Positions 2 to 51,286 of a DNA stretch of 64,000 nucleotides are shown one piece after another (position 1 is the first letter of the stretch; each line of letters begins with the position of its first letter). The DNA is taken from contig JAIRWI010000030.1 in NCBI GenBank assembly GCA_031269095.1, forward strand, positions 27,212 to 91,211. Reading direction: 5' to 3'. The position numbers and the translations under genes are program-made. The notes beneath the pieces are model-generated. The model made no database searches and was not told where the DNA came from. It was given only the letters and a program-made list of their open reading frames with translations. This stretch comes from Holosporales bacterium (GTDB lineage: Bacteria > Pseudomonadota > Alphaproteobacteria > RUG11792).

Positions 2-250
2 ATTCTAACAACGACGAGCGAGCATTCAAGGAATCTGAATTTCGGAGTAATGTTAGCAAGAGGATTAGGGAATAATAACCGAGGATTAGACACCCCAGTT
101 TGTGAAGGAGAATCGTGCATAGCAAATCTTATGAAGATTTGTCATAACAATGATTCAAAAATAGATCTTCCGATTTGTAGAGCAGTTTTTGATATAATAA
201 GAGGGAACAAACAGCCAAGTTATATCCTCGATGTCCTCGAAAGAAAATAA
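2..250 (+). CDS. gpsA: NAD(P)H-dependent glycerol-3-phosphate dehydrogenase, C-terminal fragment (5' end outside window)
   Basis: Frame 2 is open from the window edge. Translation ILTTTSEHSRNLNFGVMLARGLG...PVCEGESCIANLMKI...DLPICRAVFDIIRG fits the conserved GpsA C-terminal half (TC.S..SRN..fG..lg.G ... aEG ... mPI...vy.il). Confidence 0.8.
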   Translation: MLTTTSEHSRNLNFGVMLARGLGNNNRGLDTPVCEGESCIANLMKICHNNDSKIDLPICRAVFDIIRGNKQPSYILDVLERK

Positions 251-1901
251 CAAAATAACTTTTACCGATAAATTGGCCATTCTATCTAAAATGGTTAGGC
301 AGTATGAAAAACATACTAACATCATTTCCTCCATTCAAACAGCTAAAGAGCTTACGAAAATCATAGACGAACTCAGATTTTTCAGTATGTCTGAGTATAG
401 TTTTATGAATGAACATTATTCCCAAAATTCTCAAAAAAAACTGGAATTTTTGAACATAATTTTGGAAAATTGGCCCAAAATATTAAAAGAATTAGATTTA
501 GATGATTGTGAAAACAATTATTTTTATTCCCCATGCCACCAAGATAATAATGGCGGTGTCGTAGTCCCCAACTCTCTAACAGTTTTTGAAACAGAGAACA
601 TTTTCGAAGAGGCTGAATGTATATCTAGTATTGTTAAACAAAATAAACAGTTAAGAATTTGTATAATAGCTCTTGATGAAAGTTTCGTAAGAATATTAAT
701 AAACAATTTATTTAAAAAATATTCATATAATATCGATCTTAATGAAATAAAAAAAAAGTTTGATTGTACTAGTGATACCGAGGCGATATCTATCGAAAGT
801 ATGATACAAACTTCAAATTTTTATAGCGATAATATTTTAATAATACCTTTACAAGATATAAAAAAAACTCATACAGATTTAACTATTATTTCAAGTACTA
901 CAGATAAACAGTGGAGAAGTAACATTAAATGGAGTTACTGGATAGATGATAATATTCGAAAGAAGATAGGGCTTCCAACGAGTGGGGATATTAATAATTT
1001 TTTGAAAACTAATTTCTATCACGCAATCGCTCTTGATAAGGTTTACGCAACATTTTCACAGAAAATTAATAATTCATTTGCGAAAAAGGCTAGCGTTTTG
1101 TATGAATTTCAACCGAGCCAATATGTTCGTTATAAAGTTATTCCAAAGATTTTTTCCGAATCCTCTATCTCTTCTTCAAAATTAATGAACCAAAAAATTA
1201 TCAATACCCTTTCTGGAAAAGATATTGAACTCTTAACTAGGGATCCTTTTTCTTTTTATATAAAAAATGAACTCAATATAAAGCCTGAAACGTATTCAAT
1301 CGAGAACAGTAATTTGCGAAAACTTTATAAAAAACTCGTAAAAAATATTTTAAAAAATGAACTATTTGATATAGAAAAGACACTATATGAGATATCAAAA
1401 TTTGATTTTTATAAATACCAAAACTGCAAAAATATTACAAGATGGTTTAAAGAAAATCTTGATATATTAAACAATATTTATACAAACATTTATGGGGAAT
1501 GCGATTTTAAGATTAGCGAAAACTATAATATAAAACTATATGGATATGCCGACGGGATAATCGAAAATAAACTCATTATATGCCGTATATTCGCCCCGAA
1601 AGTGTCAATAAACGATATAATTTTAGAAAATAGCGAGAATGCTCCACTTATTTCTTGTGTAATTGCTCAAAATTGCGGGTTTTTGGATAGAAAAATTGAT
1701 ATAACTAAAATAGAAATTTGGAATATGAACGGAATTGGGACAGACCCCGTCGATATACTTACCATAGAAATTTCTAATACTCTTATAGAAAATTTTGAAA
1801 AAAGATTACAAAAACTTGTTTCTGATTACATGAACAACCAAAGCGAGTCTTCTTTGTTAGTTAATGATATTTATAGGCACTATAAAAGGATAAAAATATG
1901 A
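231..1901 (+). CDS. hypothetical protein (weak, degenerate resemblance to the AddB/PD-(D/E)XK nuclease C-terminus)
   Basis: 556-aa uninterrupted ORF. It overlaps the gpsA end by 20 nt, and its stop overlaps the tpiA ATG (ATGA). No strong family motif recognised. C-terminal LYGYADGIIENK...IEIWNMNG...YRHYKRI only loosely recalls AddB nuclease motifs, and the catalytic residues are not evident. Confidence 0.6.
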   Translation: MSSKENNKITFTDKLAILSKMVRQYEKHTNIISSIQTAKELTKIIDELRFFSMSEYSFMNEHYSQNSQKKLEFLNIILENWPKILKELDLDDCENNYFYSPCHQDNNGGVVVPNSLTVFETENIFEEAECISSIVKQNKQLRICIIALDESFVRILINNLFKKYSYNIDLNEIKKKFDCTSDTEAISIESMIQTSNFYSDNILIIPLQDIKKTHTDLTIISSTTDKQWRSNIKWSYWIDDNIRKKIGLPTSGDINNFLKTNFYHAIALDKVYATFSQKINNSFAKKASVLYEFQPSQYVRYKVIPKIFSESSISSSKLMNQKIINTLSGKDIELLTRDPFSFYIKNELNIKPETYSIENSNLRKLYKKLVKNILKNELFDIEKTLYEISKFDFYKYQNCKNITRWFKENLDILNNIYTNIYGECDFKISENYNIKLYGYADGIIENKLIICRIFAPKVSINDIILENSENAPLISCVIAQNCGFLDRKIDITKIEIWNMNGIGTDPVDILTIEISNTLIENFEKRLQKLVSDYMNNQSESSLLVNDIYRHYKRIKI

Positions 1902-8393: not shown

Positions 8394-8716
8394 ATGGTTA
8401 ATTTTTTAGAAACATATCAACAGCATTATAATATTATATATATCACAAAACTACGTAGAATATTTCAATGTATGTACTTTTGTTTATGTCCTTTTCCAGA
8501 ATCCTTAGAATCTCTCCATAATTTTCTACTACTTTTCCTTTTTCATACTGTTAGTTATGCTTCATAGAATACAAAACTCACCCTGTGATTAGGTATCGAA
8601 CTAAATTCTACCAAATATATTTTTAATTCCTATTTGTTTTGGATAAGATCTTGTACTACGCAAAACATTTTGGTAGACTCAAGATGGTGAGGTGCGATTT
8701 TGTTTATGGAGTGTCT

Positions 8717-9139
8717 ATGTTTGCCAGGGTGTTATTATTTTGTTGCATGGGTATGTTTTTGATGGGAGATAATGTATCGGCTTCGAGTGATAAAGGAGAA
8801 GTCGGAGACTGCAGCACAAGCTCATTGAAAAGTTCTTCATCGATGGGGGGCAGTGTGCCGGATTTAAGTAAAAGGAAAAGAGATAGAGGCTATACAAGCT
8901 CATTGGATAGTTCTTCGCAAGAAGATCTAAGAAGAACAGATAGGAAAGAGTCCGATTACATTCCTGTTGATCAAGACCCAGATGTTGTTTACGCTTACAT
9001 GCAAGAAAGACTTAATTTGACTGACAAATTGAAAAAAAAACTTGCTTCAAGGGAAAGAGAACTTGCCTTGCTAAAAAAAGAACTTGCTGTGGAAAAAAGA
9101 AAGCATAGCTCAAAGGAAAGACGTAGTTCGAAGAAATAG
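8717..9139 (+). CDS. hypothetical secreted Ser-rich protein with basic coiled-coil C-terminus
   Basis: ORF 8639-9139, with the likely start at M27 (MFARVLLFCCMGMFLMGDNVSASS, signal-peptide-like). Internal duplication TSSL(K/D)SSS. Basic clusters KRKRDR and KRKHSSKERRSSKK. No family recognised. Confidence 0.55.
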   Translation: MFARVLLFCCMGMFLMGDNVSASSDKGEVGDCSTSSLKSSSSMGGSVPDLSKRKRDRGYTSSLDSSSQEDLRRTDRKESDYIPVDQDPDVVYAYMQERLNLTDKLKKKLASRERELALLKKELAVEKRKHSSKERRSSKK

Positions 9140-9175
9140 AAAAGGAATTTTCGTAATTTATTGGGGAGAAAAAGT

Positions 9176-22575: not shown

Positions 22576-23637
<1,062 letters not shown>

Positions 23638-23855
23638 TTATGAAGAAATTATACGAAAAAATCGAGTAAAATAATAAGGGAAAATGGAATATGCGAAAAT
23701 TGAATACTGACTAGATTCTGCCTGCTCACTTCTTAGACAAACGTTCATATATCTTTAATAAATATAAGTTAAAAACCCCTATCACTAATACTTACACAAG
23801 TATACCTCCAAAAAAAAGAATATAATAAAAAGCTTGTAGCAAATTTTTACGTGTT

Positions 23856-25628
23856 TTACACAAGCTCTTTTCTGCCTGAGGTATCTTCCCATGAAGCCAT
23901 TTTTTCATTAGTTTTTTCTGATACGAGATTTAGTTGTACGAAGGAATTTATAGAAATACATGAAGAAAGATATTGGTTTATAAAACACCCAAGAAAAAAT
24001 GACATATAACTATTTTCTTCGTTTCGGCAAAGAATATTATATTCCATCCCTTGGACGAAACCTCTCCATGCATCAGAACCAAATCTTTTTACAACTTTTG
24101 AACTATTAATTTTTGATATTCCAGATATTAACTCTTCTGATTTGATTTTTGCCCCGGTACTAAACAAATCCATAATTTTTCTTACCGAAGATAACAAAGA
24201 ATCTCCATGTGAAATGGATATATAAGTCGATGCTAGTTCCGAAACCAAAGCCCAAAGATTATTCGGCACCTCTTTCGGATTTGTATTCTTATATAAAAGT
24301 GTTGCGTATACTCCTCCTGTTTCGAGGTTTTCGATATCCATTCTAGCAAGGACTGGTATATCACGTGATGCGAATTTGTTCATACACATGAGTTTCGTAT
24401 AAATGATATTGTCATACACTTTATCTGCTATCAATTCTGTATCAACAAATGAAATACTCGAATTTTCATCATTTTTTGAGTAAATCCAAAATAGGTTGTG
24501 GGAAACATTTGTATCAGAATCAATAGCAAGGGAGAAATATGGCTGAATAATTTTGTCTTCATATGTATTTGAATCTATATAATGTACGCTGTTTATGCTA
24601 TGGATTAGCAATTCCTTATTGCGTGTTTGGTCGGGTAACAAAAGATATTTATTTTTTTCGTTAGTAAGACGAAAAGGGTCGGCGGTAAATGGAAATAAAT
24701 TAACTATAGGAGTACAATTTAGCAAAAATGTATTTTTATTAATTATTTGAAATAATCTGTCCTTTGGTTTTGATGTTTTTATTATAAGCGAAATTTCAGA
24801 AATATCTGTAATTCCCGAGCGTTTAATGGATTCATTTATGCCGTGAATTTCAAAAAACATGAACTTTTGTTTAAAATTTAGCATTTCACCAAACAATTGA
24901 AAAATATTAGAAGAGTATTTTTTAATGGGGCAGGCCATTTCATTATCACAAAAACCACATGGTAGTATCTCTCCTGTTTCTATTATGCTATCTCCTATTT
25001 TTAGATATACACCCGAGGTGTCGCAATTAGCAAATATTGCTTCGTAAACGATGAGAGCATCTTCTATTATATTAGAGTTAATGTGGAACAATATCTTTTC
25101 GCAATTCATTCCCTCGATAGGAACTGAGTTCGTTTCTAAGTCGATTTTTATATACCATCCGTTGGTTTGCTCTATTGAATACAAAGAATTTCTTTCAATA
25201 GAGACATTTGTAATCAATAGTGGGTATATATCGAGGGGATATATCGTCCTAAATAAAGATACACCACCAGTTTTTGTTGAGTGGGAAATACTTGTTCTAC
25301 TAGGGATATTAATAAGGTTGTTTGGAGGTTCCCCTACATTTGAGTAAAATGATACAACAGAACATGGAGGGAATGGGGCTGCTAGATTAGGCGCTATCGC
25401 GTTGAGAATATAAAAAGCAATATGCTCAGAATTAATTTCAATTTTTTGGTGCAACCTTGCAGCCATAAAAGCGACAGATTCTATGATTCTTTCTGTATGA
25501 GGGTCGGTTGATTCTCCATCTTTTATATCAATTGCACTGGCGATTTCTGGATATTTTTTAGCAAATTCTCTGCCTTTTTGTCTTAAAAGTAGTAGTTCAT
25601 CTTTATAGTAATTTAAAATATCATTCAC
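23856..25628 (-). CDS. tssF: type VI secretion system baseplate subunit TssF-like (ImpG/VasA family)
   Basis: 590 aa, the expected TssF size. The N-terminus MNDILNYYKDELLLLRQKGREFAKKYPEIASAIDIKDGESTDPHTERIIESVAFMAARLHQKIE follows the canonical TssF start (..LL.YY..EL.yLR..g.eFa..yPkiA..L......DP.vERLlEgfAfLaARv..Kld). Confidence 0.75.
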   Translation of the reverse strand: MNDILNYYKDELLLLRQKGREFAKKYPEIASAIDIKDGESTDPHTERIIESVAFMAARLHQKIEINSEHIAFYILNAIAPNLAAPFPPCSVVSFYSNVGEPPNNLINIPSRTSISHSTKTGGVSLFRTIYPLDIYPLLITNVSIERNSLYSIEQTNGWYIKIDLETNSVPIEGMNCEKILFHINSNIIEDALIVYEAIFANCDTSGVYLKIGDSIIETGEILPCGFCDNEMACPIKKYSSNIFQLFGEMLNFKQKFMFFEIHGINESIKRSGITDISEISLIIKTSKPKDRLFQIINKNTFLLNCTPIVNLFPFTADPFRLTNEKNKYLLLPDQTRNKELLIHSINSVHYIDSNTYEDKIIQPYFSLAIDSDTNVSHNLFWIYSKNDENSSISFVDTELIADKVYDNIIYTKLMCMNKFASRDIPVLARMDIENLETGGVYATLLYKNTNPKEVPNNLWALVSELASTYISISHGDSLLSSVRKIMDLFSTGAKIKSEELISGISKINSSKVVKRFGSDAWRGFVQGMEYNILCRNEENSYMSFFLGCFINQYLSSCISINSFVQLNLVSEKTNEKMASWEDTSGRKELV

Positions 25629-25767
25629 AAATTTTTTACTAAAAAGTTATAAACATTCATAATTTATCACTTTTTTTGATAAAAATCACCGCGTATTAAT
25701 AGAAAATTAAGATTTTTTGTTTAGTCTTGAACAAGGTAGTATATATAAAATAAACAAAAAGGTTAAG

Positions 25768-27684
25768 ATGCTTGTAAAGTCATGCTTATATAGTTTATCA
25801 ATAATTTTCAGTAATGTTCTTCTGCTTTTACCTGCATCTGCAGCCGTAGCTGTGAGTGATACCACAACTCTGCCGAAAGAGGATGTCCTTGTTCAGGAAG
25901 AAGTTACAAAACTTCCTATTGCCGAAGCAGAATCATCGTCTGACCAAGGAGCGTCTGATACGTCATCTAATACTGAAGGCGCACAGTCTATACCTCAAAC
26001 AGAAGAAACAACAACTACTCAATCAAACGAAAATGCTGTGGTTGTATCAGAAGGGCAAGGCACTGTCGATCCACAACCAGCTGCAGCAGATACTGCTACT
26101 ACAGTACAACAAACTCAAGAGGAAGTAACTACTCCACAGCCAGCTGCAGCAGATACTGCTACTACAGTACAACAAACTCAGGGGGAAGTAACTGTTCCAC
26201 AACCAGCCGCAGCAGATACACCTAGTACAGTACAACAAACTCAGGGGGAAGTAACTGCTCCACAACCACCTGCAACAGATACACCTAGTACAGTACAACA
26301 AACTCAGGGGGAAGTTAGTTCTCCACAGCCAGTTGCTACAGATACTGCTACTACAGTACAACAACAAACTCAAGAGGAAGTAACTGCTCCACAGCCAGTT
26401 GTAACAGATACTGCTACTACAGTACAACAAACTCAAGAGGAAGTAACTGCTCCACAGCCAGTTGTAACAGATACTGCTACTACAACACAGCAAACTCAGG
26501 AAGTAACTGCTCCACAGCCAGTTGTAACAGATACTGCCGCTACAACACAGCAAACTCAGGGGGAAGTAACTGCTCCACAACCAGCTGCTACAACAGCCGC
26601 GACGCAATCTAATTCGAGTAATACTGGGGGGACACAGACTGCTGCAGTTTCAAAGGCTGGAGAGACTTTTACATCCCTAAAAGATTTACCAGAGGGATGG
26701 TATTACATTACAAAAGATATTAATGCCTTAAGAAATAAAGTTAAAAAAATAAAACAAGATAATGCTGGGGCTCAATCTGGTAGTCCAAATTCTGCAACAC
26801 AAGAGACCGTTCCTACAACACCGACAACATCTGAGGACTCCCCTAAAACAGTTGAAGAGATTCAATCTCAGCCAGTGATTGCTTCAGATTCTGAAATACA
26901 ACAAAAACCTACAGAAGAGGTAACACAACCTTCTGCTATTCCTGAACAATCATTACAAACAGCTTCTCCTCTAACTCCTGATGCTGTAACAGAATCAATA
27001 ATTGTGGATATAGCTGGGAATCCAGTGAATGTAGTTGATACAAATGGCCAACCGGTTCAATTTCAACCAACCCAATCTGTGGATCAAAATGGAAATATCG
27101 TTACTTTAACCGATACGAACGGGACCCCAATTACGGTTGTTGATGATTCTGGAAAACCGCTTGATAAAGTGGATGCAAATTGGCCGGAAAATACCACTTC
27201 AACAACTCAACCTGAGGGAGAGGCAAATGGCAATATGGCGGCAGAGCCCTCGATCCAAGAACAACAACCAGTTTCTCAACAACCAACTCCTGAAACGCAG
27301 CAAGTTAACGTTCCATCGGCTCAGGCAGATTCGTCGGTAGCAACAACTGCAACGATAGATAATACACCTCAACAACAGGTCGTTTCAGAAACACAGCCTG
27401 CAACAACAGTAGATAACACACCACAACCACAGGTCGTTTCAGAAACACAGCCTGCAACAACAGTAGATAACACACCTCAACAACAGGTCGCTTCAGAAAC
27501 ACAGCCTGCAGCAACGGTAGATAACACACCTCAACAACAGGTCGCTTCAGAAACACAGCCTGCAGCAACGGTAGATAACACAACAGCAAAGGAAGTCCCA
27601 GCTTCAAACAGAGGGGTATCTCCACGAAAAATAGAAGAGGGTTTTCCAGATGCTCCAAGTAATGCAGTATACTTTACATTTTAG
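25768..27684 (+). CDS. secreted T/Q/P-rich protein with two independent tandem-repeat arrays
   Basis: ORF 25717-27684, with the likely start MLVKSCLYSLSIIFSNVLLLLPASAAVA (signal peptide). About 8.4 x 21-aa PQP(A/V)(A/V)(A/T)DTATTVQQTQ(E/G)EVT. and about 4.3 x 18-aa VDNTPQQQV(V/A)SETQPA(T/A)T. No family recognised. Confidence 0.75.
   Translation: MLVKSCLYSLSIIFSNVLLLLPASAAVAVSDTTTLPKEDVLVQEEVTKLPIAEAESSSDQGASDTSSNTEGAQSIPQTEETTTTQSNENAVVVSEGQGTVDPQPAAADTATTVQQTQEEVTTPQPAAADTATTVQQTQGEVTVPQPAAADTPSTVQQTQGEVTAPQPPATDTPSTVQQTQGEVSSPQPVATDTATTVQQQTQEEVTAPQPVVTDTATTVQQTQEEVTAPQPVVTDTATTTQQTQEVTAPQPVVTDTAATTQQTQGEVTAPQPAATTAATQSNSSNTGGTQTAAVSKAGETFTSLKDLPEGWYYITKDINALRNKVKKIKQDNAGAQSGSPNSATQETVPTTPTTSEDSPKTVEEIQSQPVIASDSEIQQKPTEEVTQPSAIPEQSLQTASPLTPDAVTESIIVDIAGNPVNVVDTNGQPVQFQPTQSVDQNGNIVTLTDTNGTPITVVDDSGKPLDKVDANWPENTTSTTQPEGEANGNMAAEPSIQEQQPVSQQPTPETQQVNVPSAQADSSVATTATIDNTPQQQVVSETQPATTVDNTPQPQVVSETQPATTVDNTPQQQVASETQPAATVDNTPQQQVASETQPAATVDNTTAKEVPASNRGVSPRKIEEGFPDAPSNAVYFTF
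26071..26595 (+). repeat. in-frame 63-bp tandem repeat, about 8.4 copies
   Basis: ccacaaccagctgcagcagatactgctactacagtacaacaaactcaagaggaagtaact reiterated with point variants and one 3-bp and one 6-bp length variant. It generates the spurious antisense ORF 26047-26607. Confidence 0.9.
27355..27585 (+). repeat. in-frame 54-bp tandem repeat, about 4.3 copies
   Basis: gtagataacacacctcaacaacaggtcg(c/t)ttcagaaacacagcctgca(a/g)caac(a/g) repeated. It generates the spurious antisense ORF 27305-27658. Confidence 0.9.
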
Positions 27685-36172: not shown

Positions 36173-36248
36173 GTAATAGTATTTGTATTTTGCTAATTTT
36201 TATAACAAAATATGCACTATATCGTTTGTAAGTCATTTTGTTATTTGT

Positions 36249-36797
36249 ATGTTAGTAAGACCAGCAATTCACGTTCTGATTAGTATTATTACTCTTAATA
36301 ATGCCGTATATTCCTCTGCCCTAACACAGGTTATACCGTCTACAGAATCACTTAAACATTTAGATAGTTTTGGTTCTTCGAAGGAGGATTTTTCGGATTT
36401 TACCGAACAGTTAGAGAAAATCTTTGTTTTAGTTAACAAAAAAGAAGATATTAAACAAGGGAGAGGAGTAGCTTTTATCGAAAATTTTCAGTGTTGTAAA
36501 AACTCCTTAACCTTTGCTTCGGAGAGCGAAAATAATCTCCTGAAAGTAATTTTTCTTATGACTCCTGGCTCTAGGTTTCTTGTCCATTCGAAAACAGAAT
36601 ATAGTCCTATCTTCTCTCTAGTGTCTAACTATTATCGGGATAAAACAGATTCGTTTCCATTGCAGGGAGCTTGTACAAGCGAAGAGACAAAGTTTTGGGA
36701 AGATCTGAAAAAGAAAACGCGCATTCACAAGTCAGGAGAATCTTTAGAACCTTTTTGGGTAGAAAAAAGAAAACCAAATTCTCTTTCCTCTGAATAA
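36249..36797 (+). CDS. hypothetical protein, signal-peptide-like N-terminus
   Basis: ORF 36183-36797 (TTG). An internal ATG gives MLVRPAIHVLISIITLNNAVYSSA, which is signal-like. No family motif recognised. Bracketed by R1 units. Confidence 0.45.
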   Translation: MLVRPAIHVLISIITLNNAVYSSALTQVIPSTESLKHLDSFGSSKEDFSDFTEQLEKIFVLVNKKEDIKQGRGVAFIENFQCCKNSLTFASESENNLLKVIFLMTPGSRFLVHSKTEYSPIFSLVSNYYRDKTDSFPLQGACTSEETKFWEDLKKKTRIHKSGESLEPFWVEKRKPNSLSSE

Positions 36798-43892: not shown

Positions 43893-44414
43893 CTATGCAG
43901 CTTTTAACAACGTTTTAAGTTTTTGTACGGCTTCTTCTTCTTGTATTTCTTCAAGAACAGCTATTTCTCTAGCCAATCTATCTATAGCATTTTGGAAAAT
44001 TTGTCTTTCACTGAAAGATTGGACGGCTTCGCCCCCATCTTTATATAAATCTCGAAGAACTTCAGCGATTGCAACGGGGTCACCGGAATTAATCTTTGCC
44101 TCATATTCCTGTGCTCTTTTGCTCCACATCATTTTCTTTTTTCTGCTTTTTTGTGAAAGTATATCAAGAGCTGTTTGCATATCCTGTTTAGATAGCAATT
44201 TTCGTAATCCTGAACTAATCGCTTTTTCAACTGGAAGTTTCAGTATCAATTTATTTTTGTTAAATGAAATGACAAAAAACTCAACACTTCCCCCATCAAT
44301 TTCAAATTTTTCTACGTTTTCGAGACGACCTACACCATGAGATGGGTACACAACCCAGGTTCCAATTTCAAAAATGGAGCTCTTCTTTGTCTTGTTAGAA
44401 TTATTATCCGACAT
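43893..44414 (-). CDS. carD: CarD/CdnL-family transcriptional regulator
   Basis: 173 aa. The N-terminal FEIGTWVVYPSHGVGRLENVE Tudor-like RNAP-interacting domain pattern, followed by a helical C-terminal domain. Confidence 0.88.
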   Translation of the reverse strand: MSDNNSNKTKKSSIFEIGTWVVYPSHGVGRLENVEKFEIDGGSVEFFVISFNKNKLILKLPVEKAISSGLRKLLSKQDMQTALDILSQKSRKKKMMWSKRAQEYEAKINSGDPVAIAEVLRDLYKDGGEAVQSFSERQIFQNAIDRLAREIAVLEEIQEEEAVQKLKTLLKAA

Positions 44415-44561
44415 GCGTCAAATCACTTCCAAAATATTTTCGTAATACTATCACAGTCTTTTGCAAAAATCAACGACAGAAGTACCCTTTAGAAGGTATT
44501 TAAAAGTGAGTATTTAAAGTATTTTTATTTATAAATCAGTTTATTTTTTATATACCAACAA

Positions 44562-45893
44562 TTACTGTCTTAAATCTCCAAACAAACTATTTTGAAACGC
44601 ATTTTTTATGTCAACTCTGAGAAATTCCCCAATTACGTTATGGTCACTTTCGATAACGACGGATTGCATATATGGAGACCGACCGATATACTGTTTTTCC
44701 TTTTTACCGAGTTTTTCGATTAAAATAGTTTGGCTAGTGTCGATACAGCTTTTATTAAATTTTAGTTGTTGTTCCATTAAATTTTGGTGCAGAATTTCAA
44801 ATCGTTTGTTTTTTTCAATCATTGGTATTTGATTTTTCATATTATATGCAGGAGTATTTTTTCTACGACTATATTTAAAAGCATAAAACAAAGAAAAATT
44901 GACCTTCTTAACAAGGTTAATGGTGTCATAAAAATCTTTTTCAGATTCACCTGGAAAACCGACTATAAAATCTGATGAAAACGATATTTCATTGCAAATT
45001 TCACGAAATCTTTCTGTTTTTTTAATGTAATCCTCAGCGGTATGTCCCCTGTTCATTAATTTTAATATCCTATCACTTCCAGATTGAACAGGTATATGTG
45101 CGAATGGAGGCATAATTTCTTTTAATTCTTGGTGAACGTTCATCAGTTCCTCTGTAAAATCTTTCGGATGGGAGGTAGTGTAACGCAGCCTCCTTACTCC
45201 ATTTATGTTCGCAACACTGCGAAGTAATTTTTCAAAACTATACTCAGATTTATATGAATTAACATTCTGTCCAAGCAAGGTAATTTCCTTAGCACCATTT
45301 TCAACCAATTCTCTAACCTCGTTTACAATATCAGTAGCAGGTCTCGAATATTCACGCCCTCTTGTATATGGGACAACGCAGTACGTGCAAAAATTATCAC
45401 ATCCCTCTTGTATACTTACAAACTCTGAAAATGAAACAATTTTTTTTGAGGGGAGGTACACGAATTTTTCTGCTTGTGTAAATTTTATATCGAGTATTTT
45501 TTTAGATTTATCGACAAAAACTTCTTCTATATACGTATGGAGGTTATGATAAGTTTGCGGACCAAAAACTATACTAATATCTTCGCATTTATTAAAAAAT
45601 TCATTTTGTTCAGCTTGGGCAACACATCCTCCTACAGCTATAATTTTTTTTTCTCTATTTTTTATTCTCCCAATATCTGAAAGTAATTTACTAACAGCTT
45701 TTTCTCGGATATTGCACGTATAAAAAATGATTATATCAGAGTTTTCCATACTGGCGCTTTCGACATAGTCATTTTTTGTTAAATGATCTCTAATCCTTAT
45801 GGAGTCGTATACATTCATCTGGCAGCCATAAACTTTAATAAAAAAAGATTTCATGGCACCACTGTAATGATCACGATTTTCAGAAAAAGACAT
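44562..45893 (-). CDS. miaB: tRNA-2-methylthio-N6-dimethylallyladenosine synthase
   Basis: 443 aa. N-terminal FIKVYGCQMNVYDS (UPF0004). Radical SAM motif EGCDNFCTYCVVPYTRG. C-terminal TRAM-like region. Confidence 0.93.
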   Translation of the reverse strand: MSFSENRDHYSGAMKSFFIKVYGCQMNVYDSIRIRDHLTKNDYVESASMENSDIIIFYTCNIREKAVSKLLSDIGRIKNREKKIIAVGGCVAQAEQNEFFNKCEDISIVFGPQTYHNLHTYIEEVFVDKSKKILDIKFTQAEKFVYLPSKKIVSFSEFVSIQEGCDNFCTYCVVPYTRGREYSRPATDIVNEVRELVENGAKEITLLGQNVNSYKSEYSFEKLLRSVANINGVRRLRYTTSHPKDFTEELMNVHQELKEIMPPFAHIPVQSGSDRILKLMNRGHTAEDYIKKTERFREICNEISFSSDFIVGFPGESEKDFYDTINLVKKVNFSLFYAFKYSRRKNTPAYNMKNQIPMIEKNKRFEILHQNLMEQQLKFNKSCIDTSQTILIEKLGKKEKQYIGRSPYMQSVVIESDHNVIGEFLRVDIKNAFQNSLFGDLRQ

Positions 45894-46076
45894 TAATGAA
45901 TTTTAAAGATTCTCACTTACAAGTCAATAAAAAAAGAACAAAGAAGAGACGATGAGGAAATTTTTTATAAAATAAAGTTAAACTTTTACTAAAGATTGAA
46001 GAAATAAAATTATTATTTTTTTGGTTTATGTAAAAATATATTTCATATGGTCAGGATGTGGGAAAGAGGTTAGGAA

Positions 46077-48572
46077 ATGAAAAAACTTCCATTGATATCT
46101 GGGTGCTTAATTTTTGTAGCATACGTACAGCCACTTATGTCGTTTCCAGCCGGAAATGTTGAAATCTTTAATTCAAAATTAAAAACAGGAGATAAAGTTA
46201 CAAACAAAAAAGCTCCTGTTACAGTTCCTGTTCAGCAAACGGTAAAAAAAGAATCACCATCTCTATCTCAAAAAGGGTTACCTACTAGTGAGGATTTTAA
46301 GGAACATATTACTACCCCCTCACCTGTAGCCAAAGCTCCTGTTGCAGTTCCTGTTCAGGAAACGGTAAAAAAAGAATCACCATCTCTATCTCAAAAAGGG
46401 TTACCTACTAGTGAGGATTTTAAGGAACGTATTACTACGCCCTCACCTGTAGCTAAAACTCCTGTTGCAGTTCCTGTTCAGCAAACGGTAAAGAAAGAAT
46501 CACCATCTCTACCTCGAAAAGGGTTACCTACTAGTGAGGATTTTAAGCATGTTCCAGTAAAAATATCGAAAACAAATGAGCTAATAAAACGTATAGGCGA
46601 ACTTTCAGATACATTAAAAGATGTTTCAGAAGAAATAAGGGCTATAGATATTTCGAAAGAAACAGTTGGAATTGAAACTCCTCAGGTCTCTGAGTATAAA
46701 GAAATTAGTACGCCAAAGAATTCTCATTTTTACGTTGGTGGAGGACTGGAATTTGAAGTCTTGATGTTTGATGACAAAATCAAATCTGATAGAAGAGTAT
46801 TTTCTTGGAGCGAACAAAAAATCGATTACTACTCCATGGTGTCATCTGTGTTCTCTATTATTCAAAGAGATTCTTATGGAAATATAATATACGGAGATGA
46901 CGGATATCCAAAATATAGTTACAGAATAAACCCAAAGGATATTCCAGAAATTAAGGCTTGTTATGAAACGCGAGAAGACCCTGCTACTGTAATTGGAGGA
47001 GTAGCAGGTACTGGCCAAAAAAAGATGATGCTTATAGCTGGGAAGCAATATGAAGTTCAAAACCTCTTAAAAACTAGAGTAGATGAACTTATTGGTATAA
47101 CAAGCAAAGATCCAATTAAAAGTTTGAATCTGGTTACAGGTAGTGGGAAAGAAATATCGATTACACATACTCATGTAAATATTGGCCAAAATGAATATGG
47201 TCATGAGCATAAAGAACAATTTTATTTCAGTGCAAATGAGGGAAATGGACTCACATACAAAGATGGTATTCAATATTTGGATGCATTAATATGGGGGAAT
47301 TTGGTATTTACGGATGATGCAGAAACTGCTGTCGGTGCTAAAGTTGAAGCAGGAGCTCACGTCCCTTTAACTCAAGTTTTAGGAGATATAATTGAGCAAA
47401 CTGATGAAACTGTCCAATACACGACAAATTCTGGACAAATAGCTACATTCACAAATCTATATTCAGAAAGAGTCAAATCAAATGGATCAGATGTATTCAA
47501 AAAAAGTGCTGAATTAGCTGCTATAAATGAAAACGTAAGACAAAATAAGTTTTCATTTGGTGGAAATATATTGTTGGGTTGGGGAGCGTATACAGGGAAG
47601 GTCTATTATGGTGCAGAAGTTTCAGCAGGATATTCGGCTGCTGTTTCGAAAATTTCTAAACAAGATGAAAGTGAACCCGTTGTAAAAGATCTATTCGCCG
47701 ATGGAAACATGCAGTATGTTAGCTCAACTTCAACAGCTCAGAATAAAGCGTCTGGTGAAGTTCGTAAAGTTTATGTTCCTCTAGCTGGAACAGTCCAACC
47801 AGTTTATGTCTCTGGAATGGGGAGATTAACGGCTGTAACACCTAGCTCCCTTCCGGACATAAAGACCGCATACGAAGTGGAAATCAAAAAGGGATTTAAT
47901 TTTTCTATTACACCAATTTTGGGGTTGTCCCATGCTAGTACAGTTTATTACCTTTCATTAGGCATGACGTGTGATGCATATGAAGTAAAAATTTCTCCAA
48001 ATACCAATATGCTAGATGCGTATAGCAATATGTTACCAATAACATATATTAACGGCTATCTCGAAGGATTTGGGGGAAATACATATCTGCATAAATACAA
48101 AACAAGGATTACGGATGGAGGTCAGCTTATAACTCAAGAGGAATTACTCGCAGAAAAAAAGAAAGTGGAAAAGATGGAGCCTATATACCCTGCTGCTGTT
48201 CTAGAAACAAATACAGCGGGAGAGCAAAATACGTTTTCTGGAATTAGAATTACCTACCCTCACTATGCAGATGGAGGTATATCAGTTGAGGGGGAAGGTG
48301 ATGCAAGACCATGGTTGAACCAGGAAAATGTGAGCAAAGAAATAAAAATGAAAAAATATATGTTCCGCTTCGAGCCAGGAATTGGATTTAGAACATACCT
48401 TACATCAAAATATTTCATTGATCTAAGAACCTCAGTGGGTTTAGGAGAAAAAATTAAGATTGATCATGATTCATTCGCTGCTTATCCAGCTCATATAGGG
48501 CGCCCGAAACTTCGACATGAGATTGATATAATAGAATGTAAGGTGAAATTAAGTTTTGGCAGAAAACTTTAG
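46077..48572 (+). CDS. surface/outer-membrane protein with N-terminal 41-aa tandem repeats and beta-rich C-terminal region
   Basis: 831 aa. Signal peptide MKKLPLISGCLIFVAYVQPLMS. About 2.7 x APVAVPVQ.TVKKESPSLSQKGLPTSEDFKE.ITTPSPVAK. Alternating-hydrophobic beta-strand-like segments (HFYVGGGLEFEV, FSFGGNILLGWGAY, FRFEPGIGFRTYL, CKVKLSFGRKL). No specific family recognised. Confidence 0.7.
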   Translation: MKKLPLISGCLIFVAYVQPLMSFPAGNVEIFNSKLKTGDKVTNKKAPVTVPVQQTVKKESPSLSQKGLPTSEDFKEHITTPSPVAKAPVAVPVQETVKKESPSLSQKGLPTSEDFKERITTPSPVAKTPVAVPVQQTVKKESPSLPRKGLPTSEDFKHVPVKISKTNELIKRIGELSDTLKDVSEEIRAIDISKETVGIETPQVSEYKEISTPKNSHFYVGGGLEFEVLMFDDKIKSDRRVFSWSEQKIDYYSMVSSVFSIIQRDSYGNIIYGDDGYPKYSYRINPKDIPEIKACYETREDPATVIGGVAGTGQKKMMLIAGKQYEVQNLLKTRVDELIGITSKDPIKSLNLVTGSGKEISITHTHVNIGQNEYGHEHKEQFYFSANEGNGLTYKDGIQYLDALIWGNLVFTDDAETAVGAKVEAGAHVPLTQVLGDIIEQTDETVQYTTNSGQIATFTNLYSERVKSNGSDVFKKSAELAAINENVRQNKFSFGGNILLGWGAYTGKVYYGAEVSAGYSAAVSKISKQDESEPVVKDLFADGNMQYVSSTSTAQNKASGEVRKVYVPLAGTVQPVYVSGMGRLTAVTPSSLPDIKTAYEVEIKKGFNFSITPILGLSHASTVYYLSLGMTCDAYEVKISPNTNMLDAYSNMLPITYINGYLEGFGGNTYLHKYKTRITDGGQLITQEELLAEKKKVEKMEPIYPAAVLETNTAGEQNTFSGIRITYPHYADGGISVEGEGDARPWLNQENVSKEIKMKKYMFRFEPGIGFRTYLTSKYFIDLRTSVGLGEKIKIDHDSFAAYPAHIGRPKLRHEIDIIECKVKLSFGRKL
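46212..46547 (+). repeat. in-frame 123-bp tandem repeat, about 2.7 copies
   Basis: gctcctgttgcagttcctgttcag.aaacggtaaa.aaagaatcaccatctcta.ctc.aaaagggttacctactagtgaggattttaag repeated nearly identically. Confidence 0.9.
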
Positions 48573-48668
48573 AAAAAGGAATAATAAAAGTATTATGAAT
48601 AATTTAAGTTTTATAAATAATAACTTTAACTTTATAATAAAATATGATAATATATTAATATATTTATT

Positions 48669-48674
48669 AGGAGG
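48669..48674 (+). promoter_or_regulatory. Shine-Dalgarno sequence aggagg, 6 nt upstream of ATG 48681
   Basis: ttattaggaggattgatATG, read directly. Confidence 0.6.
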
Positions 48675-48680
48675 ATTGAT

Positions 48681-48956
48681 ATGTTTAAAGTATTAGGATA
48701 CGGTTTAACTTTATCTCTAGTAATGACTTGTTCTGGAATTTCTATGGAATCTATGTACGAAGATTATGGGAACAAAGAGGATAGTTACGTTAAATCACAT
48801 TTAACTAAATATTGGGATGACGACTGGAGGTGGAAAAAATCCAAAAACAAACAGTTCCAAGGAAAAAGGTTTGACAAAAGGCTCGATAAAAAGCAATTTG
48901 ACCGACCGAAAGGGGTAAATTCTATGAAAAATTGGGATAAAAAATACGGGAAATAA
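48681..48956 (+). CDS. small hypothetical secreted/lipoprotein-like Lys-rich protein
   Basis: 91 aa. Strong SD upstream. Hydrophobic N-terminus MFKVLGYGLTLSLVMTCSG, possibly a lipobox. Basic C-terminal half KKSKNKQFQGKRFDKRLDKKQFDRPKG. Confidence 0.55.
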   Translation: MFKVLGYGLTLSLVMTCSGISMESMYEDYGNKEDSYVKSHLTKYWDDDWRWKKSKNKQFQGKRFDKRLDKKQFDRPKGVNSMKNWDKKYGK

Positions 48957-48985
48957 AATTCCATTTTTTCAATTTCGTGACAAAC

Positions 48986-49183
48986 TTAAACTGATTTTTC
49001 GGTTAACATTTCAATTTTGAGTTCGGCATCCTTGAGTTTTTCTTCACAGATTTTCTTGAGTTCAGTGCCGCGCTCGAAAGATTTTACTGCATCCTCTAGA
49101 GGGAGTTTTCCTTCTTCTAGTTTTTTTATTATAATTTCAAGTTCGCTAACTGCCGCCTCAAAACTGATATTTTCACTTGCCAT
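48986..49183 (-). CDS. xseB: exodeoxyribonuclease VII small subunit
   Basis: 65 aa. [44 protein letters not shown] is the typical XseB pattern. Confidence 0.9.
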
Positions 49184-49272
49184 AATATATTATATTTCTT
49201 GATTTTAGATGGAATATCTAGGATCATACGATACATGTTGACCGGCTCCACTTGCAATAAGAAAAAAATACT

Positions 49273-49749
49273 ATGGCAGCTATAACGGAAAAAATTAAAA
49301 ATCATGTCGAAGATCTTGTGCGTGGTCTTGGGTGTAATATTGTTAAAGTTGCAATTTTAGGCGATGCTAAGTGCAAAACTATACAAATTATGATAGAGAG
49401 GATTGATAACGAACCTGTAACTGTAAATATTTGTGAATCCGTAAGCAAAATAATTTCTCCAGCGATTGATGTTATGGACCCTATCAAAGGAAGATACAAT
49501 CTAGAAATATCTTCTCCGGGGATAGATAGACCCCTTATGAAGCCAGCTGATTTTATCAGATTTATTGGAAAAAATATTGTTGTAAAAACACCTGGCCTTA
49601 AAAGTAACAGGAAAGTGTTTAAAGGATCGCTGGATTTTGCTGATGATCATGGCATAAAATTAAGTCTAGAAGAACCAGGTAATGAGATAATAGATTTTAT
49701 TTATAGCGAAATAAAATATGCGCATATAGATGGAGAAAAAGAGTTCTAA
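49273..49749 (+). CDS. rimP: ribosome maturation factor RimP
   Basis: 158 aa. LEISSPGIDRPL motif. Conserved rimP-nusA-infB context. Confidence 0.9.
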   Translation: MAAITEKIKNHVEDLVRGLGCNIVKVAILGDAKCKTIQIMIERIDNEPVTVNICESVSKIISPAIDVMDPIKGRYNLEISSPGIDRPLMKPADFIRFIGKNIVVKTPGLKSNRKVFKGSLDFADDHGIKLSLEEPGNEIIDFIYSEIKYAHIDGEKEF

Positions 49750-49780
49750 GGGAGATAAGAAAGTGAGTCGTAAAATAAAA

Positions 49781-51283: not shown

Positions 51284-51286
51284 AAT

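What the first reader, a model, noticed from the sequence alone, without database searches (positions are those of the whole stretch)
23856..25628. Isolated tssF-like type VI secretion baseplate gene with no other T6SS gene in 64 kb
The 590-aa product begins MNDILNYYKDELLLLRQKGREFAKKYPEIASAIDIKDGESTDPHTERIIESVAFMAARLHQKIE. This tracks the highly conserved TssF (ImpG/VasA) N-terminus, and the length is right. In canonical loci tssF is followed by tssG and embedded among tssBC, hcp, tssE, tssK and others. Here it lies between mreB and a divergently transcribed repeat protein. None of the listed ORFs resembles TssA-M, Hcp, VgrG or ClpV. There are three possibilities. The T6SS genes may be scattered in this reduced genome. 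This may be a relic. Or the TssF-like protein may have been recruited to another contractile-injection or baseplate-like function.
Basis: partly seen in the sequence, partly recalled or inferred. Interest (0 to 1): 0.65.

Follow-up and report, generated by a model that had tools for sequence, protein, structure and literature searches.

The report
Lone tssF of a scattered T6SS
This is a genuine, intact type VI secretion baseplate gene (tssF) in an uncultured gut-associated Holosporales bacterium. It stands alone because this group of endosymbiont-like bacteria keeps its secretion-system genes scattered around the chromosome, which is already described, so the finding is largely ordinary.

Summary
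Window 23856-25628 (-) is an uninterrupted 590-aa ORF and an unambiguous TssF: PF05947 at 351 bits, TIGR03359 at 353 bits against a cut-off of 260, and a predicted fold matching solved TssF (6N38) at TM 0.71-0.78. No other T6SS gene lies in the 64 kb. That was tested with Pfam, NCBIfam, PHROGs, 13 local T6SS profiles and tblastn with clade TssK/L/M.

The protein is already annotated as TssF of a Holosporales MAG (MDR1488570.1). Published work describes Holosporales T6SS genes as dispersed over four or more loci and conserved in nearly all genomes.

In 15 related lineages tssF is never next to tssG. In 13 of them no other T6SS gene lies in the flanks seen. Six sibling genomes carry tssK-tssL-tssM on another contig. 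TssF and TssK divergence co-vary (r = 0.92).

Two things are new but minor. tssF is unlinked even from tssG. It also carries its own conserved ~45-bp upstream module containing a CtrA-type box (TTAA-N7-TTAA).

The main caveat is that I could not show any partner T6SS gene in this MAG itself, and its TssF is the most divergent of the clade. A decaying relic is therefore not excluded (about 0.2). Interest is low.

The parts
23856..25628 (-). tssF coding sequence (590 aa, GTG start), the T6SS baseplate wedge subunit
   Evidence: The ORF is listed. It matches PF05947 at 350.9 bits and TIGR03359 at 352.6 bits against a cut-off of 260.3. It is 100% identical to NCBI MDR1488570.1, 'TssF [Holosporales bacterium]'. 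The clade profile matches solved EAEC TssF 6GIY/6GJ1/6N38 at E 5e-78. The AF2 model has pLDDT 86 and its best fold match is 6N38 TssF at TM 0.71/0.78.
25679..25724 (-). Conserved upstream module of tssF: CTAA, then N10, then TTAATTTTCTATTAAT (25695-25710, a TTAA-N7-TTAA CtrA-type box 82-67 nt before the GTG), then N8, then ATTTTTAT
   Evidence: This is the only conserved block in the alignment of the divergent spacer from four lineages. The 16-mer pattern has 2 hits in the window against 0.18 expected. The same motif lies on the same strand 72-120 nt before tssF in L001/2/3/9, L005, L006, L007/8 and L012, with TTAAC variants in L010 and L016. That is 8 of 15 non-redundant lineages. Its function as a promoter or CtrA site is inferred, not shown.
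25629..25767 (.). AT-rich divergent spacer between tssF and gene X (X probably starts at the ATG at 25768)
   Evidence: Sequence read. Only weak sigma-70-like matches were found, no more than in shuffled sequence.
25717..27684 (+). Gene X: an exported low-complexity repeat protein transcribed divergently from tssF. It is a conserved neighbour in the window's subclade. A functional link to T6SS is unproven.
   Evidence: Homologues occupy the same divergent position in L005, L006 and L007/8. Three blocks outside the repeats are conserved, with a domain E of 4.5e-19. There is no Pfam, NCBIfam or PHROGs hit. Only 10 weak relatives exist among 1.84 billion representatives, several of them RHS/YD-repeat proteins.
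23629..23855 (-). 227-bp spacer between the tssF stop and the mreB start (same strand). No terminator was detected, so read-through into mreB is possible.

Best explanation
The ORF encodes the orthologue of TssF. In T6SS baseplates, TssF forms the wedge core with TssG (two TssF to one TssG), together with TssE and TssK.

The organism is an uncultured, gut-associated Holosporales bacterium. Its relatives come from termite gut, rumen and mouse gut. In this lineage the ancestral T6SS cluster has been broken up by genome rearrangement into single genes and small islets among housekeeping genes.

tssF travels as a one-gene unit with its own roughly 45-bp upstream module, which contains a CtrA-type TTAA-N7-TTAA box. 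Its product is expected to assemble in trans with TssG, TssK-TssL-TssM, TssA, the sheath and VgrG, all encoded elsewhere in the chromosome. Together these would give the 'reduced but potentially functional' T6SS that is thought to mediate interaction with the eukaryotic host.

Shown: family, full length and fold of TssF; its isolation in 64 kb; dispersal and co-inheritance of tssF and tssK-L-M in sibling genomes; conservation of the upstream module.

Inferred: that this MAG encodes the partners; that the module is a CtrA-dependent promoter; that the apparatus works.
For: Identity:
- The profile, solved-structure and fold matches all identify TssF.

Lineage and literature:
- The protein is 100% identical to a Holosporales MAG protein.
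- Holosporales T6SS genes are published as lying at four or more loci and as transcribed (PMC8163844).
- The system is conserved in almost all Holosporineae genomes (PMC11909080).
- It is described as modified or reduced but retained even in 0.6-Mb genomes (10.1101/719211).

Context in relatives:
- In 15 non-redundant clade loci, tssF is never next to a TssG.
- In 13 of them there is no other T6SS gene in the flanks available. Neighbourhoods differ between lineages.
- L015 keeps tssF-tssK-tssL-tssM together. L001 has tssA 9.5 kb away.

Same-genome pairs:
- TssF and TssK NCBI accessions pair within 27-317 of each other in five sibling MAGs, on different contigs.
- One such pair is L004 (tssF) and L091 (tssK-DotU-IcmF) in GCA_031268935.1.
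- The nearest sequenced relative, GCA_052847495.1, has tssF on contig 67 and tssK-L-M on contig 61.

Co-inheritance:
- TssF and TssK identities correlate at r = 0.92 over 21 genome-pair comparisons.

Integrity:
- The ORF is uninterrupted in 33% GC DNA. By my own calculation about 7.5% of random codons would be stops.
- 75 of 82 strongly conserved family positions are kept.
- The model is confident.
- The upstream module is conserved exactly.

CtrA:
- CtrA-type regulators exist in the clade and sit beside T6SS islets.
- The CtrA consensus is documented, and there is an Agrobacterium precedent for CtrA sites before T6SS genes.
Against: No other T6SS gene could be tied to this MAG itself:
- No named NCBI Holosporales TssK has an accession near MDR1488570.
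- No TssK hit lies on a 92,177-bp contig.
- The rest of the contig (28 kb) and of the MAG could not be read.

The window's TssF is the most divergent of its clade. It keeps 91% of conserved positions against 95-100% in clade-mates, has an 8-aa deletion after residue 388, and has the lowest profile score.

Where L094 has tssK-L-M (between xseB and carD-rimP-nusA-infB), the window has other genes and no remnant.

TssG was not found anywhere in the clade loci I could see.

The CtrA-type box is absent before tssK (3 loci), before tssA, and before tssF in 7 of 15 lineages.
Confidence: 0.7

Rival explanations
1. Relic. In this particular lineage the T6SS is being lost, and tssF is a still-intact leftover with no working partners.
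For: No TssK from the same MAG was found. TssF is the longest branch of its clade, with seven departures at conserved positions and an 8-aa deletion. tssK-L-M is missing, without trace, from the slot where L094 has it. Split T6SS genes elsewhere in the clade hint at ongoing decay: L016 tssF as 174+442 aa and L092 tssM as 1191+326 aa. Holospora has lost the system altogether.
Against: A 1.77-kb ORF without a single stop or frameshift in 33% GC DNA, together with an exactly conserved upstream module and a confident full-length TssF fold, argues for continuing selection. MAG incompleteness or unbinned contigs explain the missing partners equally well. JGI-only TssKs of the right subclade exist (P0150, P0166) and fit as partners in the mirror-tree test. 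tssK-L-M sits in a different place in every lineage, so its absence from one slot means little.
Confidence: 0.2
2. Recruitment. The TssF-like protein now serves another contractile-injection or baseplate-like apparatus (eCIS, tailocin or GTA-related), or has an unrelated moonlighting role.
For: Only its isolation from other T6SS genes. A GTA-type head-tail connector gene lies 3.4 kb from tssF in L005. GTA clusters are reported in protist endosymbionts (PMC9254644).
Against: The best fold match is T6SS TssF (TM 0.71-0.78), while eCIS and phage gp6-type proteins reach TM 0.34 or less. The protein passes the TssF equivalog model. There is no sheath, tube, baseplate_J, gp25 or other tail gene in the 64 kb by Pfam, NCBIfam, PHROGs or local profiles. 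TssF co-varies with TssK across genomes (r = 0.92). GTAs are not contractile and, to my knowledge, have no TssF-type wedge.
Confidence: 0.04
3. Extra copy. The genome has a complete T6SS cluster elsewhere with its own tssF, and this gene is a stray paralogue.
For: This cannot be excluded without the genome.
Against: All roughly 65 close homologues form one orthologous clade with a solitary context. The sibling genomes examined show an islet organisation rather than a full cluster. The window's TssF groups with the nearest relatives' single copies.
Confidence: 0.04

Closest known systems
Dispersed T6SS of Holosporales endosymbionts (Ca. Bodocaedibacter vickermanii; Paracaedibacteraceae, Caedimonadaceae; PMC8163844; review PMC11909080)
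   Same: The order is the same. T6SS core genes are split over several chromosomal sites among housekeeping genes, and a tssK-tssL-tssM islet is also seen in this clade (L015, L091, L092, L094). The system is conserved across the group and presumed to act on the host.
   Different: The published arrangement keeps tssG-tssF as an adjacent pair and tssA with tssK-L-M. In this gut-associated clade tssF is a single-gene unit with no recognisable tssG beside it in any of 15 lineages, and tssA is separate (L001). tssF has its own conserved upstream module with a CtrA-type box. Partners in this MAG are unproven.
Canonical clustered T6SS-i, e.g. the EAEC Sci-1 TssK-TssF-TssG-TssE baseplate (PDB 6N38, 6GIY)
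   Same: The protein family and fold are the same (E 5e-78 by profile, TM 0.71-0.78). The length is similar and conserved residues are kept.
   Different: Sequence identity to canonical TssF in other phyla is 25-30%, and 16-17% to the solved EAEC chain in the fold alignment. In the 71 canonical clusters fetched, the genes lie in one block, tssB-tssC-hcp-tssE-tssF-tssG-clpV-vgrG. Here they do not.
Modified T6SS of highly reduced diplonemid endosymbionts (Cytomitobacter, Nesciobacter; 10.1101/719211)
   Same: These are Holosporales with tiny genomes that retain most T6SS core genes while apparently lacking Hcp and TssJ.
   Different: They belong to a different family and host. Gene order around tssF was not compared here.
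gp6 / Baseplate_J-type wedge proteins of eCIS, tailocins and contractile phages
   Same: They are distant structural relatives of TssF and have the same position in the baseplate wedge.
   Different: The fold match is only weak (TM 0.34 or less). There is no profile match. No accompanying tail genes are present.

Membership tests
TssF (ImpG/VasA) protein family | Full-length match to the curated family profiles above their cut-offs | tested here: met
   PF05947 scores 350.9 bits against a cut-off of 25, covering profile positions 3-607 of 608. The TIGR03359 equivalog scores 352.6 bits against a cut-off of 260.3.
TssF (ImpG/VasA) protein family | Fold of solved TssF (three-domain wedge subunit) | tested here: met
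   The AF2 model has pLDDT 86.1 and pTM 0.84. The top Foldseek hits are 6N38 chains H and I, at E 8e-34 and TM 0.71/0.78. The sequence profile hits 6GIY/6GJ1/6N38 at E 5e-78.
TssF (ImpG/VasA) protein family | Conserved family residues retained; ORF uninterrupted | tested here: met
   All 20 invariant columns and 75 of 82 columns conserved at 85% or more are kept, although this is the lowest value in the clade. There is no internal stop.
TssF (ImpG/VasA) protein family | Genetic linkage to tssG (typical, not strictly defining) | tested here: not met
   There is no TssG (PF06996, or the local C3 profile verified) next to tssF in the window or in any of 15 clade lineages.
Functional T6SS-i apparatus in this organism | Presence of the other core genes (TssA, B, C, E, G, K, L, M, Hcp, VgrG, ClpV optional) in the same genome | tested here: inconclusive
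   None lies in the 64-kb window. None could be tied to this MAG by accession or contig size. In six sibling genomes TssK/L/M are present on other contigs.
Functional T6SS-i apparatus in this organism | Expression, assembly and secretion | not testable with these tools
   The only evidence is indirect: the conserved upstream module, and transcription reported for a different Holosporales species (PMC8163844).
Dispersed Holosporales-type T6SS organisation | Holosporales lineage, with T6SS genes at separate loci among housekeeping genes | tested here: met
   The NCBI name is 'Holosporales bacterium'. The flanks of tssF are housekeeping genes: mreB, dnaE and TolC-DUF2497. Relatives show solitary tssF plus a tssK-L-M islet.
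Dispersed Holosporales-type T6SS organisation | Published conserved blocks [tssG-tssF], [tssK-L-M-tssA] | tested here: not met
   tssF is without tssG (see above). tssA is separate from tssK-L-M in L001, and no tssA follows tssM in L091, L092 or L094.
eCIS / phage contractile-tail baseplate (gp6, Baseplate_J) | gp6-type profile or fold, plus neighbouring sheath, tube and gp25 genes | tested here: not met
   There is no such Pfam or PHROGs hit for the protein or its neighbours. eCIS and phage baseplate chains reach TM 0.34 or less.
CtrA regulon member (cis-element only) | TTAA-N7-TTAA box in the promoter region, conserved in orthologous promoters | tested here: met
   An exact box lies 82-67 nt upstream. 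It is conserved at -72 to -120 in 8 of 15 lineages. The consensus is given in PMC11264516. The generic pattern is not enriched in the window: 6 hits against 10.4 expected.
CtrA regulon member (cis-element only) | CtrA binding and CtrA-dependent transcription | not testable with these tools
   CtrA-type regulators exist in the clade, scoring 316-324 bits on NF045991, just under the 350-bit cut-off. No ctrA lies in the window.

The most novel reading that the evidence does not exclude
In gut-associated Holosporales the T6SS is fully atomised, and tssF has become an autonomous single-gene unit. It is uncoupled even from its obligate partner tssG. It is kept under a conserved promoter module with a CtrA-type box that tssK-L-M lack. 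TssF supply, and hence baseplate assembly, would then be gated by the cell-cycle or differentiation regulator CtrA. That would make it a checkpoint tying T6SS firing to a particular developmental stage of the symbiont.
Probability: 0.2. Interest if true: 0.5.

Novelty: new member of a known kind. Interest (0 to 1): 0.2.

Why it matters
It matters little for T6SS biology as such. The gene is already annotated as TssF, and the scattering of T6SS genes in Holosporales is published.

The case is useful in three small ways:
- It extends the dispersed-T6SS picture to an uncharacterised gut-associated (termite, rumen, mouse) Holosporales clade.
- It shows that even the tight TssF-TssG pair can be unlinked.
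- It offers a concrete handle, the conserved CtrA-type module before tssF, on how a dismembered secretion system might be regulated.

If the relic reading were right for this lineage, it would instead be a snapshot of T6SS loss, as in Holospora.

Tried and rejected
- **TssB-TssC-ClpV suspicion.** I suspected the abutting 158/517/894-aa genes at 49273-53971. They are rimP-nusA-infB.
- **Cryptic T6SS parts among unannotated ORFs.** I tested 231-1901, 8639-9139, 9161-10090, 11549-12292, 36183-36797 and 46077-48572. They gave no profile signal, and five of the six have signal-peptide-like N-termini, so they are exported and not TssG, E, B or Hcp.
- **Hidden TssG among tssF's neighbours in relatives.** These genes turned out to be UvrB, YceG, a lytic transglycosylase, a UCH-domain protein, or unknowns with no TssG signal.
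- **Reaching the window's own contig or MAG.** Exact look-ups of both start variants of TssF failed. The MAG is not a GTDB representative. The metagenome scan did not contain it.
- **Joined query.** A joined TssK+TssL+TssM query (2080 aa) returned nothing, probably a query-length artefact, and wasted one search. TssK alone worked.
- **Accession matching.** It found no TssK for this MAG.
- **The JGI-only candidate P0150.** It could not be located.
- **CtrA box as a shared signal of all T6SS islets.** Rejected: the box is absent before tssK in L015, L091 and L092 and before tssA in L001.
- **Gene X as an Rhs-type effector.** Not supported: there are only a few degenerate YD-like units, X itself has no Pfam hit, and it has a Sec-type N-terminus.
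Full report
**1. The observation**

Window 23856-25628 (minus strand) is an uninterrupted 590-aa ORF with a GTG start and the quoted N-terminus. It matches Pfam T6SS_TssF end to end, at E 1.9e-104 and 350.9 bits over profile positions 3-607 of 608. It passes the NCBIfam equivalog TIGR03359 at 352.6 bits against a cut-off of 260.3. A profile of 39 family members matches the solved EAEC TssF (6GIY/6GJ1/6N38) at E 5e-78. An AlphaFold2 model (pLDDT 86.1, pTM 0.84) has TssF of the TssK-TssF-TssG wedge as its best structural match (6N38, TM 0.71/0.78). eCIS and phage gp6-type baseplate proteins reach only TM 0.34 or less. The TssF call is therefore secure.

**2. Nothing else T6SS in the window**

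mreB (22576-23628), a YGGT gene and dnaE lie downstream on the same strand. A divergently transcribed repeat protein lies upstream.

I scanned every sizeable ORF with Pfam or NCBIfam. The window is housekeeping: thrS, pfk, hisS, rnhA, tmk, an ABC transporter, acs, dnaE, mreB, tolC-DUF2497, dnaG-rpoD, gltX, accA, dsbB, asd, dnaB, carD, miaB-like, rimP-nusA-infB, ffh, tdk, murC-like, mutL, bamA/tamA-like and murJ. It also has seven ORFs with no family.

I then built local profiles from 71 canonical T6SS clusters. Their labels were verified as TssG, TssE, Hcp, TssC, TssB, VgrG, PAAR-like, ClpV-type and TssA and as TssK, TssL and TssM. Among all six-frame ORFs of 50 aa or more in the window, these profiles hit only tssF.

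tblastn with the clade's own TssK/L/M/A finds no remnant in the raw DNA (best E 0.014). PHROGs finds no phage-tail-like protein. Five of the six unannotated ORFs examined start with a signal-peptide-like segment. Gene X, the seventh, does too. They are therefore exported proteins, not cytoplasmic T6SS parts.

**3. Who this is**

The protein is 100% identical to NCBI MDR1488570.1, 'MAG: type VI secretion system baseplate subunit TssF [Holosporales bacterium]', on a 92,177-bp contig that is also in IMG. About 65 orthologues at 41-56% identity form a clade whose named members are Holosporales or alphaproteobacterial MAGs. They come from termite gut (WGS prefixes JAIR, JAIS and JAIT), rumen (RUG, RGIG) and mouse gut (MGBC). 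The Holosporales review describes such an uncharacterised, animal-gut and especially termite clade within 'Ca. Paracaedibacteraceae'. The next relatives are canonical TssF proteins of other phyla at 25-30% identity.

**4. What is already known**

Midha et al. (PMC8163844) state that T6SS core genes lie at four or more genomic locations in Bodocaedibacteraceae, Paracaedibacteraceae and Caedimonadaceae. [quoted passage not shown] The 2025 review (PMC11909080) calls the T6SS conserved in almost all Holosporineae genomes except Holospora, and 'probably non-standard'. George et al. (10.1101/719211) found most core genes retained even in 0.6-Mb genomes, with Hcp and TssJ apparently missing.

**5. 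What relatives show**

I examined 15 non-redundant clade loci: the window, L001, L004-L007, L010-L017 and L089.

- tssF is never adjacent to a recognisable tssG.
- In 13 of them no other T6SS gene lies within the flanks available. Some of these contigs are short.
- Neighbourhoods differ from lineage to lineage: leuS, nrdD, ubiA, holB, uvrB, pntA and others.
- The exceptions are L015, which keeps tssF-tssK-tssL-tssM, and L001, which has tssA 9.5 kb away.
- Even the 61%-identical relative of L015 (P0064) has a solitary tssF.

The partners do exist in the same genomes:

- The TssK search found about 88 clade TssK clusters.
- NCBI accessions of TssF and TssK pair within 27-317 of each other in five sibling MAGs, while lying on contigs of different length.
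- In GCA_031268935.1, tssF is on a 98.8-kb contig (L004) and tssK-tssL(DotU)-tssM(IcmF) is on a 57.6-kb contig (L091), both among housekeeping genes.
- In GCA_052847495.1, the sequenced genome nearest the window's lineage, tssF is on contig 67 (L006) and tssK-L-M on contig 61 (L092).
- Across seven genomes where both proteins are known, TssF and TssK identities correlate at r = 0.92 over 21 comparisons. This is what co-inherited parts of one machine should show.

**6. The gap: this MAG itself**

I could not show any partner gene in the window's own genome.

- Exact look-ups of the protein failed.
- The MAG is not a GTDB representative.
- The one metagenome scan did not contain its contig.
- No named NCBI Holosporales TssK has an accession near MDR1488570, and none sits on a 92,177-bp contig.
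- JGI-only TssKs of the right subclade exist (P0150, P0166). They fit best as partners in the mirror-tree test (rmse 0.043-0.045).
- P0150 is, like the window's TssF, absent from the contig index. This is circumstantial only.

Three observations lean the other way:

- The window's TssF is the most divergent of its clade. It keeps 75 of 82 conserved positions against 95-100% in clade-mates, and it has an 8-aa deletion after residue 388. It also has the lowest score against the canonical profile.
- In L094 the tssK-L-M islet sits between xseB and carD-rimP-nusA-infB. The window has these housekeeping genes, but the slot holds a miaB-like gene and an 831-aa exported protein, with no tssK-L-M remnant.
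- Split T6SS genes occur elsewhere in the clade: L016 tssF and L092 tssM. These may instead be assembly errors.

Against a relic reading:

- At 33% GC, about 7.5% of random codons are stops (my own calculation). A 590-codon ORF would not stay open without selection.
- The predicted fold is complete.
- The upstream regulatory module is intact (section 7).

I put a working dispersed system at about 0.7 and a relic at about 0.2.

**7. A conserved cis-element**

I aligned the divergent spacer from four lineages. The only conserved block was GTTAATTTT-N3-TTAAT.

- The pattern TTAATTTTNNNTTAAT occurs twice in the window against 0.18 expected.
- It lies on tssF's strand 72-120 nt before the start codon in the window (25695-25710), L001/2/3/9, L005, L006, L007/8 and L012. 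TTAAC variants occur in L010 and L016. That is 8 of 15 lineages, including ones whose upstream gene is different.
- Anchoring on the motif reveals a longer shared module, [C]T(T/A)AA-N10-TTAATTTT-N3-TTAA(T/C)-N7-8-A(T)6-8A.
- TTAA-N7-TTAA is the CtrA consensus, usually found at the -35 position (PMC11264516).
- CtrA sites precede T6SS genes in Agrobacterium (PMC7003649).
- CtrA-type regulators scoring 316 and 324 bits on NF045991 (cut-off 350, twice the next family) lie beside tssF in L089 and beside tssK in L091.

There are limits. The generic pattern is not enriched in the window, at 6 hits against 10.4 expected. The box is absent before tssK (3 loci), before tssA, and before tssF in seven lineages. 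Binding is untested. I read the element as tssF's own promoter or regulatory module, which moved with the gene. That supports the view that tssF is an expressed, self-contained unit.

**8. The divergent neighbour, gene X**

The repeat protein (25717-27684; its true start is probably the ATG at 25768) has homologues at the same divergent position in L005, L006 and L007/8. Three blocks outside the lineage-specific low-complexity spacers are conserved:

- 'DLPEGWYYITKD...'
- a roughly 65-aa 'VDxxGNPVNVVDxxGxP...NWP' block (domain E 4.5e-19)
- a C-terminal 'SPxxIEEG...F' tail

Part of the wider order, tolC-DUF2497-[unknown]-tssF, is shared with L007. X has no Pfam, NCBIfam or PHROGs hit. It has only 10 weak relatives among 1.84 billion representatives, several of them RHS/YD-repeat proteins. 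Other subclades have a different unknown family in the same slot: L001 at 385 aa and L016 at 379 aa. With a Sec-type N-terminus, X is not an obvious T6SS substrate. A functional link is not shown.

**9. Comparison and novelty**

The protein is a TssF by every intrinsic test. The organisation is the dispersed Holosporales type, with two departures from the published blocks: tssF is without tssG, and tssA is apart from tssK-L-M.

Nothing supports recruitment to an eCIS-like system. There are no tail genes, the fold is the T6SS type, and TssF co-varies with TssK.

The gene is already annotated as TssF in GenBank, and the scattering is in the literature. I therefore rate this 'new member of a known kind' with low interest (0.2).

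The most novel reading still open is a fully atomised T6SS in which TssF supply is gated by CtrA. I give that probability about 0.2 and moderate interest if true.

The decisive step is simple: read the whole assembly that holds MDR1488570.1 and count the T6SS core genes.

Noticed in passing
window 25717-27684 (+); L005 1-1518 (-); L006 8256-9869 (-); L007 8607-9887 (-): A conserved family of exported low-complexity proteins ('gene X') sits divergently upstream of tssF in the window's subclade. Three blocks are conserved between hypervariable repeat spacers. The middle block weakly resembles YD/RHS hairpin repeats. No database family matches it.
   Followed up: partly
window 25679-25724 (-), core 25695-25710; same position in L001, L005, L006, L007, L010, L012, L016: A roughly 45-bp module containing a CtrA-consensus box (TTAA-N7-TTAA) is conserved 72-120 nt upstream of tssF in 8 of 15 lineages, whatever the upstream gene is. 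It is absent before tssK and tssA.
   Followed up: partly
window 11487-11502 (-): This is the only other exact copy of TTAATTTTNNNTTAAT in the window. It lies 47-62 nt upstream of an exported repeat-protein ORF (11549-12292, +), in the opposite orientation. It may be a second target of the same regulator.
   Followed up: no
L089 6546-7250 (+); L091 8643-9386 (+): CtrA-type response regulators (NF045991, 316 and 324 bits) lie right beside T6SS genes in two different lineages: ctrA-Band_7-tssF, and ctrA-rbfA-tssK-L-M. Together with L015 (tssF-K-L-M), this suggests an ancestral ctrA...tssF-tssK-tssL-tssM locus that was later fragmented.
   Followed up: partly
L094 9625-21377 versus window 43893-53971: L094 has xseB, tssK-L-M, a pseudouridine-synthase-like gene, then carD-rimP-nusA-infB. 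The window has carD, xseB and rimP-nusA-infB, but a miaB-like gene and an 831-aa exported protein where tssK-L-M would be. The arrangement looks inverted, and no T6SS remnant is present.
   Followed up: yes
L016 6368-8211; L092 10592-15157: tssF is split into 174+442 aa in mouse-gut MAG MGBC162888. tssM is split into 1191+326 aa in GCA_052847495.1. These are either pseudogenisation of T6SS genes in some clade members or assembly and frameshift errors.
   Followed up: no
L017 15953-18565 (-): An 870-aa protein with a eukaryote-type ubiquitin C-terminal hydrolase (UCH) domain lies about 4-7 kb from tssF in a rumen MAG. It is an effector-like deubiquitinase, consistent with an intracellular lifestyle.
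   Followed up: no
window 8639-10090, 11549-12292, 36183-36797, 46077-48572: Several unannotated ORFs have signal-peptide-like N-termini and tandem low-complexity repeats or acidic tails. The 831-aa ORF has a tripled ~50-aa N-terminal repeat. They are lineage-specific exported proteins, possibly host-interaction factors.
   Followed up: partly
L005 6863-7273 (+): A Phage_connect_1 (head-tail connector) gene lies 3.4 kb from tssF. This fits the GTA clusters reported in protist endosymbionts (PMC9254644) and is probably unrelated to tssF.
   Followed up: no
window 231-1901 (+): A 556-aa ORF has only a faint AddB-like match (E 0.002). It may be a degenerate or truncated addB-type repair nuclease.
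   Followed up: no
TssF/TssK protein sets (P0009/P0139, P0059/P0120, P0042/P0135, P0047/P0142, P0053/P0125, P0045/P0126, L015): Pairwise identities of TssF and TssK from the same genomes are tightly correlated (r = 0.92; TssK identity is about 1.5 x TssF identity - 0.14). The dispersed genes evolve as one co-inherited system.
   Followed up: yes
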